Source: a virus (taxonomy: Duplodnaviria; Caudoviricetes). From it: a stretch of 64,000 nt of DNA. The notes beneath the pieces are model-generated. The model saw nothing but the letters and a program-made list of their open reading frames with translations, was not told where the DNA came from and ran no database searches. Below are positions 58,901 through 64,000 of the stretch, piece after piece. The stretch covers positions 65,635 through 129,634 of IMG/VR virus record IMGVR_UViG_3300014204_000124; one strand, written 5' to 3'. Every line of letters starts with the position of its first letter. Within the stretch, counting starts at the first letter, position 1. Both the position numbers and the translations under genes were made by a program.

Positions 58901-61229
58901 GTATCTGCCTGGGATGGCTCCGCCTGTGCCTGCGGCGGTGCCTCAGACGCCGTGGTATCGTAGTCCTACAGCGGCGGCGAGGGCCGGAGTTGGTGCTGCT
59001 GGAGCGTATGTGGGTGGGAGCCGAGCAGGTCGGGCAGTAGGTGGGTGGGGTTCGCAGGTAGCGGGTCGAGCGGGGCCAGCGATGAGTTGGGGAATGACGG
59101 GGATGTTAGCCGGGCAAGTGATGCAGGGTATGGCGAAGCCGGGCGAGGGCATGGATATCGCTGGTGGTTTCGTAAGTGATATGGCGGGTGGTGCTGCCAT
59201 GGGTGCCATGTTGGGAGGTCCGTGGGGGGCTTTGATAGGTGGCGCTGCTGGGGCTGGGAAGGCGTTGTACCAGCTAGGTGACAAGTTAGACGAGCGTCGG
59301 AAGAGAGAAGAACAGGAGTTGAACAAAATTGAAGGTTCGCGTGTTTTCAGCAACTTAATCGGAGACCTTGAATACTTCTCCAAGACGTTTGCGCGTAGTA
59401 GCGAGACATTTGACCAGACGATGGAACGTATAGACAAAATAGGTTCAAATTTTGCGCAGGCCAATGCGGTTACAATGGCTAATATAGATGGGCTTAACAA
59501 CAGGTATCAGATTCAGTTATCGGGAATCGACTCTGTGATTGCGGGGTTGGGCCGTTATGTTGATGGCAAGGGGGTCCTTTCTGCGACTCAGATTAACGCC
59601 ACAACAAGTGCCATGGAAGCACTGCGGGGTGCCGGGTTTTTGACAGAGAAAGAATTTGCCAAGTTTTCCGAGACAGGGTCGCTTGCTGGGTTATCCGACA
59701 AGATAGGTCTGATTTCAGAAGCGTTGGAAGTGGAGCGTGCGATCATCACCGATGCGGACAGATTGTATGCTATGAAGCTCCAGACAGAGAATCTAATTTA
59801 TCAGGGGAAGGTCTTTGAAGCGGAGAGGAAAGAGAGAGAGTTGAGGCGTAAGGCAGATAAGGAGGTCGAGAAAAAAGGCAAAGCCGAGAAAACGGCGGTG
59901 TCTTTGGGGAAGGTTCAGGACGTACTTTCCGATGTGGATGTAAAGGGTGCTGTAGCGGGATTGAGGAGGCAGGATAGCCCAGAACTTATTCGGCAAGCTA
60001 AAGAGTATTTGGATGCCAAGAAGTATCGTCCCGACGATATAGATCTGCGCAAGTTCTCTGATTTGCGCTACGCGGGCAAGGGCGGAGATTTAGAAGCGAC
60101 GGCGAAGCGAATTCTGGCTAAAGAGAAAGATGCACGAACGGAGGTAGAAGCTTATAAGGCTACTCTAGCATCGCAGTTTGGAGGTTTGAAAGGGTTGTTG
60201 GGGCCAGAGGTAGATAGTTTGTTGGACCAAATAGCGTCCGGGGCAACGGATAAGATGGGTCAATTAGAGGAAACTATTTACAAGAAGCAGGCAGAAGCGA
60301 CGGCCATGTTGAAGAGTGCGGAAGAAGGCGTTGCCGCCGTAGAGGCTCTGATAGACGGCGTTTACGCTGGCCTCGAAGAGGCGGGGTTCGCTTTGGAAGA
60401 GAAAGTCAAACAGGCGGATGATGCCAGGACTCAGCAGATAGCAGAGGGGCAGGCAGCGCACAAGAAAACATTGGAGGCTCAGGCAGCGGCGCAGAAGGCG
60501 GAAGAGGAAAAGAAGGTCAAGGTCGATGCCTATAACAAAGAGTATGGAACTTCTCTGGCACGGTTTATCGATTATGATACTAAAGTGGGGTTAGAACAGA
60601 GCAAAGATTTGAAGATGCGGGAGAAGTGGAATCGCGCTCAGGAGATTGCGGGGTTGATTCAGAGGGTATCAGCGTTTGGCCTCGCCAATAGGGATCTTAT
60701 GAATAGCCCTGAATCCTATGCTAGGTTCTTGGAACGAGTGGGAGCGTTAGGGAAGCAGTATTACGAGGGGGAGCAGAAATTCGGTGCTATGTATGAGGGG
60801 TTTGGTATGGCGTTGGGGGCGACGGGCGTAGGCATGGCGGGCAAGAAATTCCCTGAGTATTCTAAGGGGGGGGTCTCTGATATGCCGTCAACTGGTGGTT
60901 TGGCGATGCTGCATGGCCGTGAGTTGGTTTATCCGTTGGATTCTCTTCCGAGTCCACAGGCTATTGCTGGCTTACGAGAAGCTATAGGTCAAGCAGGGAA
61001 CAGACCGAGTATCCAGGCGGCACCGCCGGTGAAGAGTGCTCGTGAAGCGATTCAGGTTGTTGTTGACAACGATGAGGCGAACCGAGAGTTGATTCAGGTG
61101 TTGCGGGATGAGTTGGGGGCGGTTCGGAAGCTGTTATCGGTGGACAAGCGGTATGTCCTTATCGACAGCCGTGGGAGCAAAGTGGGGGCGGTTCAGGAAC
61201 GTAGTAGAAGCGCAGCTATGGTGGGATAA
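55950..61229 (+). CDS. tape measure protein
   Basis: 1759 aa, helical, Ala/Gly-rich, Trp-spaced repeats (AVSEALG twice), C-terminal KGG...LAMLHGRELVYP; follows the chaperone. Confidence 0.9.
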   Translation: MRLLGLGFLFSSKDRGLSKSLESTSRGISSIDEASARLDRSLGRSFLPKFLQGINTRQLGQIGQSVDALADKFSPRGSLTTNIMQAGMAAAKSGRQIAFRMGGNLGATAKKMRELGSAAYGLNASTETVQAGYQALIEKFSEAEIAAMGFSKAQDLVRMTEMVGDFKGYVGVLDDLADTWGFNAVGAKELVDDIYRIGGAFGQGEGAIAQMQANVESIGEAFNLLPGQIEPEKVRKGVESITALAGALSKSGFSAEDAWTKSRDLFKFLNAPKANLSKLMAGLDPGGDIFESLVRLSPALGSVDQAMAMLEKSPLEFVRAMNEVYKATDENSQQAKYLRGVFDSLGMRWALGNENLDGYIAGIVDANGEIKKMGPGLQEAANKMYSLNLTMDEQIDRAKDLFETRLIRIAGKEIRAFVSRSKGAYTSLGNVIGDLAADKGPLGLIVTKLVAVRKIGLSALLPTIGAFGDIIIDTVTNMAPLLTAMSSMGFKLSDLFVPLTGINKLMLGIPGALLGTVGPFAAVAGAVALLGRVLKKGEDPLSAFGATFEALPESMMRTLNWLGGDKWDKKMWESFRSLSSEEQLAEVEKSGKKLAESLWTDFETSFFVGVDLLKGWVVDAGATLWESRGAVSEALGGAWDWAVESAWPVVRAGVWTLWDHAKIAVGEVDWKGMGAAVSEALGKAWELAKFDAFPWVKRKLQWLWTEAMGFAEDIDFAGKAKNVWRYVLMGFREVVGKAPQLGKVFLSAIGGGWDWVVENKGMLAAKFVSGATVVVGGVADAMGKAFDALGSGAASGSGWVLTIVDFFGDVVERAVDALSDTNVAAIAAKFGGFLEGVFDAGFAGMTGYKVKEDVVLSPMERAIKNLGSGVQKIAGALYDVLAKVVGDMWDYAGTKFREWWEDPMRSMFEKVGDAFPRVMKAAGIALLFSSAFRNAIFGGLGMLLKGGLFLRLQSTIRGIGAGVAPAVAAAAMPAVAPAMVGGGAYLPGMAPPVPAAVPQTPWYRSPTAAARAGVGAAGAYVGGSRAGRAVGGWGSQVAGRAGPAMSWGMTGMLAGQVMQGMAKPGEGMDIAGGFVSDMAGGAAMGAMLGGPWGALIGGAAGAGKALYQLGDKLDERRKREEQELNKIEGSRVFSNLIGDLEYFSKTFARSSETFDQTMERIDKIGSNFAQANAVTMANIDGLNNRYQIQLSGIDSVIAGLGRYVDGKGVLSATQINATTSAMEALRGAGFLTEKEFAKFSETGSLAGLSDKIGLISEALEVERAIITDADRLYAMKLQTENLIYQGKVFEAERKERELRRKADKEVEKKGKAEKTAVSLGKVQDVLSDVDVKGAVAGLRRQDSPELIRQAKEYLDAKKYRPDDIDLRKFSDLRYAGKGGDLEATAKRILAKEKDARTEVEAYKATLASQFGGLKGLLGPEVDSLLDQIASGATDKMGQLEETIYKKQAEATAMLKSAEEGVAAVEALIDGVYAGLEEAGFALEEKVKQADDARTQQIAEGQAAHKKTLEAQAAAQKAEEEKKVKVDAYNKEYGTSLARFIDYDTKVGLEQSKDLKMREKWNRAQEIAGLIQRVSAFGLANRDLMNSPESYARFLERVGALGKQYYEGEQKFGAMYEGFGMALGATGVGMAGKKFPEYSKGGVSDMPSTGGLAMLHGRELVYPLDSLPSPQAIAGLREAIGQAGNRPSIQAAPPVKSAREAIQVVVDNDEANRELIQVLRDELGAVRKLLSVDKRYVLIDSRGSKVGAVQERSRSAAMVG

Positions 61230-61543
61230 TGGGCGTAAGATTAGACAAAAACTCGCCTGCTTGGTTTGCCGTCCTCGCCAAGTTTAGCGATGGGAGCGAG
61301 GCGTTCGGACCTATGGACTTTCCTGTTTTAGAGGAACGGTACGATGATAGTTTTCACTTGGTCGAGAATGGGCATACTATTGAGGGATTAGCGTTGCGAT
61401 ATTATGGTTCTGTGGACCTATGGCCGGTGCTTGCTGTGGCGAATGGTTTAGAGATGCCTTCGGTGCAGTTGTATCCTGGTTTGGTGTTGCGGATTCCGTC
61501 CGCCGTATATGTCAGCAAGGTGTGGAAATCTGTGGGGAGATAA
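61229..61543 (+). CDS. LysM/tail-X-like baseplate protein
   Basis: H.V..G.TIE.LA.RYYG...LW..LA.AN...G..LRIP. Confidence 0.85.
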   Translation: MGVRLDKNSPAWFAVLAKFSDGSEAFGPMDFPVLEERYDDSFHLVENGHTIEGLALRYYGSVDLWPVLAVANGLEMPSVQLYPGLVLRIPSAVYVSKVWKSVGR

Positions 61544-61544
61544 G

Positions 61545-62897
61545 ATGTCAGTTGTGATGGGGGACCAGTTAGGTGGTTATGTAGAGCTGGTTGTAAAGAC
61601 TCCGAACGGTGTTTTTGCCATGAACAGTTCGGGCAAGGAGTTCGAGGCGAGTGGCTCGGTTCAGGATTTGGGGCCATTGCTCCAGTTCCAGTCCGCCGAA
61701 GTGTCGTTGGGGTTAAGTCTCATTCCCGAGGTCAGTTTTGATGCGTTCGTTCCGGCTGAGTATATGGTATTGGTTCTTGATTCTCAGATTGCCAATTCTC
61801 AGGGGGAGTATTACTTGCGTTTCCTGGGTTCTTCCGGGCAAAAGTCTCCCTGGTGGGGTGGCCTTACCACGAAGCCAAGCGTGAGCATTGACGACGCCGG
61901 GGCGCAGATATCGTTTCAGTCGAAGGGGATTTCAGCGTCGATTTCGGAGATTGGTTCCAGGGCTGTGGCGAAGGACCAGACGGTAAAGGCGTATATGGAG
62001 AATGTCTTTGTCGAGTTGAAGTTGGCCAACTGTCTGGTTTTCGAGGCCGACCCGAGTGTGAAGGTGACCAAGCCGTTCGTTTTCACCCGTCCGAGTTTTT
62101 GGTCGGATCTCGTGGCTTTTTTGGGTGAGTACGAGATGGCCATATTGGACAACCCGGAGCAGCCGAGTATTGACCAGCCGTTGGCGTCTTCGGTCAAGGT
62201 AATGAACATTCGGGATTTGGTGGGGGACTCCAAGGCGACTGTGATTCTTCGGTATCGTCCGGGTGCTACCATTGGTGATCAGGATGATGGCACGACGATT
62301 CTCCCGATATTGTCGTTCAAGTGTGACGCCGACGTATTGTGGACACCGGGTATGGGCGATGCGGCCCTCGTGTCGTTCAACCGGGACACGATGATGTATG
62401 ATAAGGTTTCGCTTTCCTCCGCCGACAATTCGGCGATGAAGGGTTCAGGCGACAGTTATATACTGGACGATCCATCCAATAGCCGTTTGTTGCCTCCTGT
62501 GGCCACGCGTGCGAAGGAGAGTGTGTGGAGTGTACAGGGGGCGTTGCATTGTGAGGTTTTAGACGCTGACAGTGCGGGTGGCGGTTCGGAGAAGGCGCAA
62601 GCTGATTTGACAAGGCGGCATGAATTTGCTGGGTTCGAAGCTGAGGTGGGCACTGTGGGGGCTTTGATAGTTCCGGGTTCCAAGGTGTATGTCGATGGAA
62701 TTTGCAAAAAGTTTGATGGCAGTTACTTTGTCAAGACGGCTGTTCATAGCGGTAGCGGGGCGTGGGAGACCAATCTCAGTTTGGTGAAGATTGGGGACAA
62801 GACCGAGACCGAGGCGAAGGCTGTAGGTGCTGACCCAGGGCCTCCCGATGGAGGGTCCGGTTCTGAGAAGTCGGCAACTCAAGGGGGTGGGGTATGA
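61545..62897 (+). CDS. baseplate hub (gp27/GpD-like)
   Basis: PG.KV.V.G....DG.YFVK...H; lies before the spike gene. Confidence 0.7.
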   Translation: MSVVMGDQLGGYVELVVKTPNGVFAMNSSGKEFEASGSVQDLGPLLQFQSAEVSLGLSLIPEVSFDAFVPAEYMVLVLDSQIANSQGEYYLRFLGSSGQKSPWWGGLTTKPSVSIDDAGAQISFQSKGISASISEIGSRAVAKDQTVKAYMENVFVELKLANCLVFEADPSVKVTKPFVFTRPSFWSDLVAFLGEYEMAILDNPEQPSIDQPLASSVKVMNIRDLVGDSKATVILRYRPGATIGDQDDGTTILPILSFKCDADVLWTPGMGDAALVSFNRDTMMYDKVSLSSADNSAMKGSGDSYILDDPSNSRLLPPVATRAKESVWSVQGALHCEVLDADSAGGGSEKAQADLTRRHEFAGFEAEVGTVGALIVPGSKVYVDGICKKFDGSYFVKTAVHSGSGAWETNLSLVKIGDKTETEAKAVGADPGPPDGGSGSEKSATQGGGV

Positions 62898-63733
62898 AGG
62901 TCTTCCTGGGTTGGGCAGAGCGTTTGGTGAATCTCGGTTTAGAGGTGGTTCTGGGGCGGTATTATGGGGAGTACGACGGGATTGTCAAAGACAACAAAGA
63001 TCCTGCTGGCAAGGGGCGGGTCTTGTTGGTTGTTCCTGCCACTGGGATGGGGGATGCTGTGCCTCTTCCGACATGGGCGACACCTATATTCAGCACAGCA
63101 TGTGGAGTTGGGCACGGCGGGTTTTGGCCTCCAGAGGTTGGGGACCATGTAATGGTGAGTTTCGATTTTGGGGATATAGCGAAGCCGCTATATAAGGGGG
63201 GATCTTACGGTGCCGGTGGGGTTCCGGTCGAGTTTGATCCGGGGAAGGGGAAGGCACCCATGAAGCGCGGGTGGCGGAGTGTTGCCGGGCATTTTCTCCG
63301 GTTCAACGATACTCCTGGGGCTGAGTCTGTGGTCTTGGCTTCGGCTGGGAAGTCTATGGTGAGCCTTGACGCTGGGGTTTTCATAGCGTCTAACGGTGGC
63401 ACTTCGATTTTCCAGATGAAGGATGGCACGATTGTATTGGTAGATAATGCGGGTAATGTTATCAGCAGTTCTAGTTCCGGGTGGACCATCCAGAACGGGA
63501 CTGTATTTATTGAGTTGAAGGGGGATATGGTCCAGATAGTGGGGGCGAAGATTGCTGTAGCGGGCAGTGTTTCTCTGGGGGCACCTATGGCGGACACGCC
63601 TGCTGTCAGATTCTTGGAGTTATCGACGTGGCTTTCCACGCATACTCATCCTACGTTCAATGGCCCGAGCGGTCCGCCGATACAGGCGGGTACGGTCGCA
63701 ACTATTAAATCAAAATCAGTGATGGTGGCATAA
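62894..63733 (+). CDS. baseplate spike (gp5/GpV-like)
   Basis: YYG.Y.GIV.DN.DP...GRV, PEVGD.V.V.F..GD...P, terminal THTHP. Confidence 0.9.
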   Translation: MKVFLGWAERLVNLGLEVVLGRYYGEYDGIVKDNKDPAGKGRVLLVVPATGMGDAVPLPTWATPIFSTACGVGHGGFWPPEVGDHVMVSFDFGDIAKPLYKGGSYGAGGVPVEFDPGKGKAPMKRGWRSVAGHFLRFNDTPGAESVVLASAGKSMVSLDAGVFIASNGGTSIFQMKDGTIVLVDNAGNVISSSSSGWTIQNGTVFIELKGDMVQIVGAKIAVAGSVSLGAPMADTPAVRFLELSTWLSTHTHPTFNGPSGPPIQAGTVATIKSKSVMVA

Positions 63734-64000
63734 TGAAAGTAAAATGTGGAAGTTGAACGTTCCCATTACCGGAGTTACCGGGGTTACCGAGTTTTTCACT
63801 ACCGAGTTTCACTTTGCCGAGTTTACCTTCGTTGCCCAGTTTCAGTTTACCGGATTTTCCTGGGTTTAGTTTACCGAGTTTGAAACTACCGGGGTTACCG
63901 AGTTTTTCACTACCGAGTTTCACTTTGCCGAGTTTACCTTCGTTGCCCAGTTTCAGTTTACCGGATTTTCCTGGGTTTAGTTTACCGAGTTTGAAACTAC
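63733..64000 (+). CDS. Leu/Pro/Ser/Phe repeat protein interrupted by an in-frame TGA (CxxU); runs off the window
   Basis: TAATG coupling to the spike gene; MKVKCGS-TGA-TFPLPELPGLPSFSLPS... open to the window end. Confidence 0.6.
63776..64000 (+). repeat. perfect 111-bp tandem repeat (2 copies plus start of a third)
   Basis: 63776-63886 is identical to 63887-63997; 37 codons per unit. Confidence 0.95.

What the first reader, a model, noticed from the sequence alone, without database searches (positions are those of the whole stretch)
63733..64000. In-frame UGA in a C-x-x-U motif in the gene after the tail spike: candidate phage virion selenoprotein
Seen: the ATG at 63733 overlaps the spike stop (TAATG). 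It reads M-K-V-K-C-G-S-TGA(63754-56) and the same frame then stays open to the window end as a coherent LPSF repeat protein. There is no ATG or GTG downstream of the TGA in that frame within the window. The TGA falls where the second Cys of a CxxC would be. A small hairpin CCGG-AGUUA-CCGG has its loop starting 16 nt after the UGA, with G at loop position 2. Established: CxxU is a typical selenocysteine context, and bacterial SECIS elements are hairpins just 3' of the UGA with a G near the start of the apical loop. Inference: Sec insertion or UGA readthrough by host machinery yields a structural protein. Caveats: the hairpin may be a by-product of repeat codons, and a nonsense mutation or base-call error is possible.
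Basis: partly seen in the sequence, partly recalled or inferred. Interest (0 to 1): 0.78.

Follow-up and report, generated by a model that had tools for sequence, protein, structure and literature searches.

The report
Stop codon replacing cysteine after spike
A landfill phage carries a real UGA stop exactly where its closest relative has a cysteine, in a small uncharacterised gene next to the tail-spike gene; this fits selenocysteine by position, but the RNA signal bacteria need to insert it is missing, so a knocked-out or nearly silent gene copy is more likely.

Summary
ATG 63733 overlaps the spike stop, codon 8 is TGA (63754-56), and the frame stays open across the contig end to a TAA at contig 126-128.

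The gene is real. It belongs to an unnamed family of 108-150 aa Leu/Pro/Ser-rich proteins with about three internal repeats. Members start M-x(2-4)-C-x-F and end C-P-[LF]-D. In 5 contexts the gene directly upstream matches Phage_base_V, and a distant relative has a PAAR gene in the same slot.

The closest relative (L007) reads MNVKCGSCTFP, with TGC where our phage has TGA. All 10 complete relatives have Cys there. The TGA is in four assemblies from at least two landfill samples, so it is not an assembly error.

Selenocysteine is not supported:
- The hairpin is 4 bp (-4.4 kcal/mol), a type found after 33% of this genome's ordinary TGA stops.
- The region folds worse than shuffles and worse than the Cys relatives.
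- There was no Rfam hit.
- Only one clone carries the TGA.
- The phage has no tRNA-Sec, selB or selD, and the host is unknown.

Best reading: an opal null or leaky allele (about 0.58). Selenocysteine is about 0.13. The scan has noted phage selenoprotein candidates on other DNA, including a PAAR spike tip, but not this family.

The parts
62894..63733 (+). Baseplate central spike gene (279 aa, gpV/gp5-type OB domain, C-terminal THTHP motif). Its TAA stop overlaps the next start.
   Evidence: Pfam PF04717 Phage_base_V, E 6e-13. PHROG 430 baseplate hub/tail lysozyme. Relatives at 66-83% identity.
63733..63756 (+). Start of the small post-spike gene: M K V K C G S followed by TGA. A GGTGG Shine-Dalgarno-like box lies 5 nt upstream.
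   Evidence: The orthologue in L007 reads ATG AAC GTA AAG TGC GGA AGT TGC ACA TTC CCG.
63754..63756 (+). In-frame TGA at the column where relatives have Cys (TGC in L007 and L002, TGT in L016).
   Evidence: The identical TGA is in L013, L014 and L017.
63757..64000 (+). Rest of the gene in the same frame (Leu/Pro/Ser/Phe repeats). It runs over the contig end and finishes ...SLTCPLD-TAA at contig positions 126-128 (L001).
   Evidence: family profile hits at contig 129391-129627 and 15-125, E 5e-13 and 8e-9, no stops inside.
63769..63781 (+). The hairpin CCGG-AGUUA-CCGG proposed as a SECIS.
   Evidence: It is 4 bp and -4.4 kcal/mol. The same minimal criteria are met after 26 of 80 ordinary TGA stops.
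63776..64000 (+). Exact 111-nt (37-codon) tandem repeat inside the gene. It is the reason the contig breaks here and is classed as having terminal repeats.
   Evidence: TRF period 111, 100% matches. There are 3 copies in this record and 2 in L013 and L017.
63705..63923 (-). Spurious antisense ORF (GKL repeats), open only because the repeat is low-complexity. Gene callers picked it in L017 and L018.
   Evidence: The antisense frame is broken in L002, while the plus frame is conserved end to end.

Best explanation
The gene after the spike is a genuine member of an uncharacterised family of small proteins with about three repeats, Cys near both ends, and a position in the slot where other phages encode a PAAR tip.

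In this one phage clone a single base change (TGC or TGT to TGA) turned the N-terminal Cys codon 8 into an ordinary opal stop. Ribosomes coupled from the spike gene start at ATG 63733 and terminate after seven residues. At most a trace of full-length protein arises by near-cognate readthrough.

The clone therefore carries a null or strongly hypomorphic allele that it tolerates, because it persists in the landfill.

Shown: the gene is real, the TGA is real and reproducible, it lies at a Cys column, TGA is this genome's normal stop, and there is no SECIS-grade structure.

Inferred: termination actually happens, the protein is spike-associated, and it is dispensable or needed only in trace amounts.
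For: - TGA is the commonest stop here (80 of 183 predicted genes; 93% coding density under code 11). TGA-A ends 24 of those genes.
- Cys codons are one substitution from TGA.
- Only one clone carries the TGA. L013, L014 and L017 are 100% identical to the window over 1.9-4.8 kb.
- All 10 complete family members have Cys there.
- The 67 nt from the TGA fold at -8.9 kcal/mol, against a shuffle mean of -13.4 (z +1.78; 199 of 200 shuffles fold as well).
- The 60 nt after the TGA fold worse than 91% of random 60-mers from this genome.
- The Cys relatives fold more stably over the same stretch, at -20.3 and -18.8.
- No Rfam match at E up to 10.
- No tRNA, tRNA-Sec, selB or selD in the phage.
Against: - Only 1 of 38 single-base routes to a stop in the L007 gene hits this codon, and 3 of 38 hit any Cys. 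A random nonsense mutation landing here is therefore a priori unlikely, although the finding was selected for exactly that.
- The allele is found in two different samples (SRR6484787 and SO_2017 LW3), so it is not quickly purged.
- The 110 codons downstream show no second lesion.
- The phage has no PAAR gene and no second copy of the family as a backup.
Confidence: 0.58

Rival explanations
1. Selenocysteine (or SelB-dependent Cys) is inserted at UGA-8 by the host's SelB and tRNA-Sec, using the small CCGG hairpin or an atypical SECIS. This would give a C-G-S-U spike-associated virion protein.
For: - There is a Cys/TGA pair with conserved flanks on both sides: MKVKCGS-TGA-TFP against MNVKCGS-C-TFP, with mostly synonymous differences around it.
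- The allele persists in two samples.
- The downstream ORF is intact, and there is no backup gene.
- The hairpin meets the loosest published pattern limits as I recall them: at least 4 bp, G in the first two loop bases, 16 nt from the UGA.
- Bacterial SECIS elements are heterogeneous, and some escape the consensus model (PMC12013277).
Against: - The hairpin is at chance level, being found after 33% of ordinary TGA stops. It is only -4.4 kcal/mol and is generated by CCG-G codon junctions that recur through the repeat.
- The region is less structured than in the Cys relatives.
- No Rfam SECIS hit.
- The UGA is not shared by any diverged relative.
- The protein has no recognised redox fold.
- The phage carries no Sec genes, and the host is unknown.
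Confidence: 0.13
2. Leaky termination is the working state. Rare near-cognate decoding of UGA (Trp, occasionally Cys) yields the few copies per virion that a spike-tip protein needs, as in Qbeta's minor coat protein.
For: - By analogy with PAAR, only one to three copies per virion would be needed. This rests on position and on about three internal repeats.
- The allele persists.
- The ORF downstream is intact.
Against: - TGA-A is an ordinary stop for 24 genes here.
- The usual insertion, Trp, would replace a Cys that all relatives keep.
- There is no readthrough-promoting structure.
- Nothing here measures readthrough.
Confidence: 0.12
3. Translation restarts downstream of the TGA at an in-frame TTG (first at 63814), giving an N-terminally truncated protein without the Cys.
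For: In-frame TTG codons exist at 63814, 63832 and further on.
Against: - No Shine-Dalgarno sequence lies before 63814.
- The product would lack the family's conserved N-terminus.
- The TTG codons are simply Leu codons of the repeat.
Confidence: 0.06
4. Sequencing or assembly error, or genome-wide reassignment of TGA.
For: The locus lies next to an exact repeat that breaks assemblies.
Against: - The same TGA appears in four assemblies made by different pipelines from at least two samples.
- The TGA lies 20 nt before the repeat, in unique sequence.
- Code 11 gives 93% coding density, and TGA ends 80 predicted genes.
Confidence: 0.03

Closest known systems
Bacterial selenoprotein genes with an in-ORF SECIS read by SelB (prototype E. 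coli fdhF)
   Same: An in-frame UGA sits where homologues have Cys, flanks are conserved on both sides, and the local arrangement is C-x-x-U.
   Different: There is no stable or conserved hairpin after the UGA. The UGA is present in one clone only. The protein has no recognised redox fold, and the Sec machinery of the host is unknown.
PAAR-repeat spike-tip proteins (Pfam PF05488; T4 gp5.4)
   Same: The gene slot is directly after the Phage_base_V spike (L015 has a PAAR there). Both are small, have about three internal repeats, and carry Cys residues.
   Different: There is no sequence relationship (hhalign probability 0.04%; no Pfam hit). The family is Leu/Pro/Ser-rich, and AlphaFold2 gives no confident fold (pLDDT 51). 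Binding to the spike is not shown.
Opal nonsense alleles of phage genes, and the leaky UGA of Qbeta's coat/A1 gene (from my own knowledge)
   Same: A UGA inside a virion-protein gene; any full-length product would depend on readthrough.
   Different: Here the stop is at codon 8 of the gene rather than at the end of a functional coat protein. No readthrough has been measured.
Earlier notes of this scan on phage selenoprotein candidates, including a PAAR tip with two UGAs (e1-5657211, e1-5362015)
   Same: A phage gene with UGA at a Cys column, in one case also in the spike-tip slot.
   Different: Those notes report the UGA kept by dozens of diverged relatives together with a co-varying hairpin. 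Both features are absent here. I did not test those notes.

Membership tests
Bacterial-type selenoprotein gene | In-frame UGA aligned with Cys in homologues, with conserved sequence on both sides | tested here: met
   L007 has TGC at the same codon inside MNVKCGSCTFP. Every complete relative has an N-terminal Cys.
Bacterial-type selenoprotein gene | SECIS hairpin just 3' of the UGA that is stable or conserved beyond chance | tested here: not met
   Only a 4-bp hairpin of -4.4 kcal/mol is present. The same pattern follows 26 of 80 ordinary TGA stops. Fold z-score is +1.78. The Cys relatives fold better. No Rfam hit. bSECISearch itself could not be run.
Bacterial-type selenoprotein gene | UGA maintained in diverged relatives | tested here: not met
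   All TGA-bearing contigs are 100% identical and so are one clone. L007, L002, L016 and 6 database proteins have Cys.
Bacterial-type selenoprotein gene | selA, selB, selC and selD available in the host or the phage | not testable with these tools
   The phage has no tRNA, tRNA-Sec, selB or selD. The host is unknown: there was no spike match in genome contigs and no host entry in the landfill papers.
PAAR spike-tip proteins (PF05488) | Match to the PAAR motif profile | tested here: not met
   No Pfam hit for the window's two halves or for P0049. hhalign against the L015 PAAR gives probability 0.04%.
Post-spike Cys...CP[LF]D repeat proteins (unnamed family defined here) | Gene directly after a Phage_base_V spike, plus strand, start overlapping or abutting the spike stop | tested here: met
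   Seen in the window, L002, L007, L009 and L016.
Post-spike Cys...CP[LF]D repeat proteins (unnamed family defined here) | M-x(2-4)-C-x-F N-terminus, C-P-[LF]-[DNEA] C-terminus, and about three Leu/Pro-rich repeats of 37-43 aa | tested here: met
   Alignment A4 has M1, C8, C118 and L120 invariant. A profile search of the own genome hits both halves. The one departure is TGA in place of the N-terminal Cys. In the L007/window lineage, either C5 or C8 may be the family Cys.
Phage_base_V spike (upstream gene) | OB-fold injector domain | tested here: met
   PF04717, E 6e-13, above the curated cut-off.

The most novel reading that the evidence does not exclude
UGA-8 is decoded as selenocysteine (or SelB-dependent Cys) through an unusually small or atypical SECIS. 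That would make the sole spike-slot protein of this landfill phage a selenium-containing virion component with a C-G-S-U clasp or metal site.
Probability: 0.13. Interest if true: 0.85.

Novelty: new member of a known kind. Interest (0 to 1): 0.42.

Why it matters
If the UGA were decoded as Sec, this would be a selenium-containing structural protein of a phage particle. I found no such protein in the papers I could search. It would also show that phages exploit host Sec machinery for infection hardware.

As the evidence stands, the main value is twofold.

First, it is a worked example showing that a Cys/TGA pair alone does not separate Sec from a nonsense allele.

Second, it defines an uncharacterised, rare family of small proteins with about three repeats and Cys near both ends. 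The family occupies the PAAR slot after the spike in several uncultured phages. It is a candidate alternative spike-tip or spike-associated protein and is worth a structure.

Tried and rejected
- **Antisense gene.** The minus-strand GKL-repeat ORF (63705-63923) was rejected. The plus frame is conserved from M..C..FP to CPLD in relatives, while the antisense frame breaks in L002. Codon-usage scoring could not separate the strands.
- **Genome-wide TGA or TAG recoding.** Rejected. A scan for other TGA-split genes found only ordinary same-frame neighbours.
- **Suppressor or Sec tRNA in the phage.** None found.
- **Rfam at E up to 10.** Nothing.
- **Database searches with the small protein.** The large searches mostly return low-complexity hits in giant proteins. 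P0001, P0061 and P0062 were set aside as not family.
- **Exact-pattern scan of viral contigs for the N-terminal DNA.** Nothing.
- **The spike in genome contigs.** Nothing.
- **Host look-up** in the landfill papers' supplements: nothing. Relatives cannot be drawn for a virus record.
- **Structure.** The AlphaFold2 monomer had pLDDT 50.6 and no secondary structure, so no fold search was made.
- **ESM Atlas:** best score 0.79, uninformative.
- **PDB profile search:** only a low-complexity ApoB hit.
Spike binding therefore remains untested.
- **Gene-60-type bypass and frameshift readings.** Considered from the sequence alone and dropped, because the other plus frames hit a stop in every repeat.

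Full report
**1. The observation**

- The 279-aa ORF 62894-63733 ends in TAA.
- The ATG at 63733 overlaps that stop as TAATG.
- The next codons are AAA GTA AAA TGT GGA AGT TGA, which puts the TGA at 63754-56.
- The same frame then stays open to base 64000 and encodes Leu-Pro-Ser-Phe repeats.
- No ATG or GTG follows in that frame. TTG codons do, the first at 63814.
- The hairpin CCGG-AGUUA-CCGG (63769-81) has its loop 16 nt after the UGA, with G at loop position 2.

The upstream gene is a baseplate central spike. It matches Pfam Phage_base_V at E 6e-13 and a PHROG for baseplate hub. It is not a receptor-binding tailspike.

**2. Where the window sits**

The window is the last 64 kb of a single 129,634-bp IMG/VR virus record. 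The contig's first and last 39 nt are identical. An independent 129,682-bp ENA contig (L013) runs straight through the junction at 100% identity. The genome is therefore circularly permuted, and the ORF continues at contig base 40.

Joined, the ORF is 118 codons and ends ...SFSLTCPLD-TAA at contig 126-128.

Bases 63776-64000 are an exact 111-nt (37-codon) tandem repeat. That repeat is why the contig breaks here. This record has three copies, while L013 and L017 have two. The true copy number is not settled.

**3. The genetic code**

Under code 11 a greedy ORF set covers 93% of the genome. TGA is the commonest stop, ending 80 of 183 predicted genes. TGA followed by A ends 24 genes. Reading TGA or TAG as sense does not improve the gene set. 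There is no genome-wide recoding.

**4. Is the ORF a gene, and on which strand?**

Three frames are open across the repeat because it is low-complexity, and codon usage cannot separate them. Relatives settle the question. Each of these phages has an ORF right after its spike on the plus strand:

| Locus | Spike identity to ours | Post-spike ORF |
|---|---|---|
| L007 | 83% | MNVKCGSCTFPVPSLP...LNLTCPLDQ |
| L002 | 71% | MSNCQFPMPSLP...GFSCPLD, ATGA start overlap |
| L016 | 66% | MSGCSFPSLPG...AFKCPFD |

An exhaustive HMMER search and a profile search add six database proteins of 108-150 aa with the same ends: P0030, P0039, P0047, P0049, P0059 and P0060. Where context is available, they follow a Phage_base_V spike and precede GPW_gp25.

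Alignment A4 has M1, one N-terminal Cys, the C-terminal Cys and the following Leu invariant. Most members show an internal period of 37-43 residues, which gives about three repeats.

The family has no Pfam, PHROG or PDB relative. It has no detectable relation to PAAR. An AlphaFold2 monomer model is unconfident, with pLDDT 51.

In L015, a distant relative of the L009 spike, the ORF after the spike is a PAAR protein (PF05488, E 4e-8). The family therefore sits in the spike-tip slot. That it binds the spike is an inference from position and from the number of repeats. The complex predictor was unavailable and then closed.

**5. The TGA column**

The first codons of our gene and of L007 compare as follows:
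- Ours: ATG AAA GTA AAA TGT GGA AGT TGA ACG TTC CCA
- L007: ATG AAC GTA AAG TGC GGA AGT TGC ACA TTC CCG

The TGA lies exactly at the second Cys of a CGSC motif. Most of the differences on either side are synonymous.

MAFFT aligns this column with the single N-terminal Cys of all other members, through the shared C-x-F-P. Counting from the Met, C5 could equally be the family Cys, so the CGSC pair may be specific to this lineage.

It is also what one base change in a Cys codon would produce.

**6. Is the TGA real?**

The identical sequence, TGA included, is present in three other assemblies:
- L013, an ENA k141 assembly
- L014, a Logan assembly of SRR6484787
- L017, from JGI metagenome 3300037067

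A paper on these landfills identifies 3300037067 as leachate well LW3 sampled in 2017 (10.1101/2024.05.30.596742).

SRR6484787 also holds the L002-type phage. IMG lists that phage from LW1 2016 and LW1 2017. SRR6484787 is thus most likely a run from the same landfill and a different sample from LW3 2017.

All of these contigs are 100% identical to the window apart from repeat number. This is one clone seen in at least two samples. A base-call or assembler error is excluded for practical purposes. Evolutionary maintenance of the UGA across diverged lineages is not shown.

**7. SECIS test**

- The 67 nt from the UGA fold at -8.9 kcal/mol, against -13.4 ± 2.5 for shuffles (z +1.78). 199 of 200 shuffles fold at least as well.
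- The 60 nt after the UGA fold more weakly than 91% of random 60-mers from this genome.
- The hairpin alone is -4.4 kcal/mol.
These are met after 26 of 80 ordinary TGA stops and after 25-38% of all TGA triplets in this genome.
- The stem is formed by two CCGG tetramers arising from Pro-Glu and Pro-Gly codon junctions. The same tetramers recur through the repeat.
- The Cys-encoding relatives fold more stably over the same stretch, at -20.3 and -18.8 kcal/mol. The TGA allele has therefore not gained structure.
- Rfam gives nothing at E up to 10.

The literature notes that bacterial SECIS elements are heterogeneous and that consensus models both miss real ones and give false positives (PMC12013277). 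Absence of a good hairpin therefore weakens the Sec reading strongly but does not exclude it.

**8. Sec machinery and host**

The phage encodes no tRNA or tmRNA. It has no tRNA-Sec, selB or selD.

The host could not be identified. The spike has no relative in the species-representative genomes. The two landfill virus papers' held supplements do not list these contigs.

**9. Weighing**

Points for a special reading:
- Only 1 of 38 single-base routes to a stop in the L007 gene hits this codon, and 3 of 38 hit any Cys.
- The allele persists across samples.
- The 110 downstream codons are intact.
- The phage has neither a PAAR gene nor a second copy of the family.

Points for a plain stop:
- The finding was selected because it looks like CxxU.
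- TGA is this genome's normal stop.
- No structure beyond chance follows the TGA.
- No diverged relative keeps the UGA.
- The protein is not a recognisable redox enzyme.

My estimates:

| Reading | Probability |
|---|---|
| Null or hypomorphic opal allele | about 0.58 |
| Functional leaky readthrough | about 0.12 |
| Selenocysteine | about 0.13 |
| Restart at TTG 63814 (no Shine-Dalgarno) | about 0.06 |
| Sequencing or assembly artefact, or recoding | about 0.03 |

**10. Comparison and novelty**

I found no paper describing a natural phage selenoprotein.

Earlier notes of this scan report candidates on other genomes, one of them a PAAR spike tip. In those notes the UGA is kept by many relatives and has a co-varying hairpin. 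Neither holds here. I did not test those notes.

Two results stand. One is a reproducible opal codon at a Cys column, which needs reads, a host and a reporter assay to resolve. The other is a previously undescribed small protein family in the spike-tip slot.

Noticed in passing
window 63776-64000 and L001 1-109: The record's 'direct terminal repeat' is only 39 nt and lies inside the 111-nt tandem repeat of a gene. The circular join is real, since L013 spans it, but the repeat number differs between assemblies (3 against 2).
   Followed up: yes
L001 154-693 (gene after the small ORF); L018 3703-4242: The next gene (179 aa) begins MKQLERLRVLLE. An earlier scan note lists this as one of several shared N-terminal tags in this genome. 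Its L002-type homologue carries a weak Pfam Phage_ProQ_C_like hit.
   Followed up: no
L015 2082-2354: A distant spike relative from landfill well LW4 2017 has a bona fide PAAR gene (PF05488, E 4e-8) in the post-spike slot. The slot is thus filled by unrelated small proteins in different phages.
   Followed up: partly
L007, L018 and L014 (landfill metagenomes): At least three related phages co-occur in the same landfill. Their spikes are 100%, 83% and 71% identical to ours. Two of them are in the same sequencing run, SRR6484787. Each has a different version of the small gene: TGA, CGSC, or a single Cys.
   Followed up: partly
L017 810-1028 (-) and L018 3312-3554 (-): Gene callers annotated a spurious antisense ORF across the repeat instead of the conserved plus-strand gene. 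This may be one reason the family looks so rare in protein databases.
   Followed up: partly
window 61229-61543 and 61509-62897: The module upstream reads: tape measure (1759 aa), a LysM-like baseplate protein (104 aa), a hub-like protein (462 aa, weak PHROG hits), then the spike. This is a T4/Mu-like baseplate core order.
   Followed up: partly
window 63744-63869 and 63746-63883: Both other plus frames also carry start codons and stay open for 41-45 codons across the repeat. This is an effect of the low-complexity sequence, and each hits a stop once per repeat unit.
   Followed up: yes
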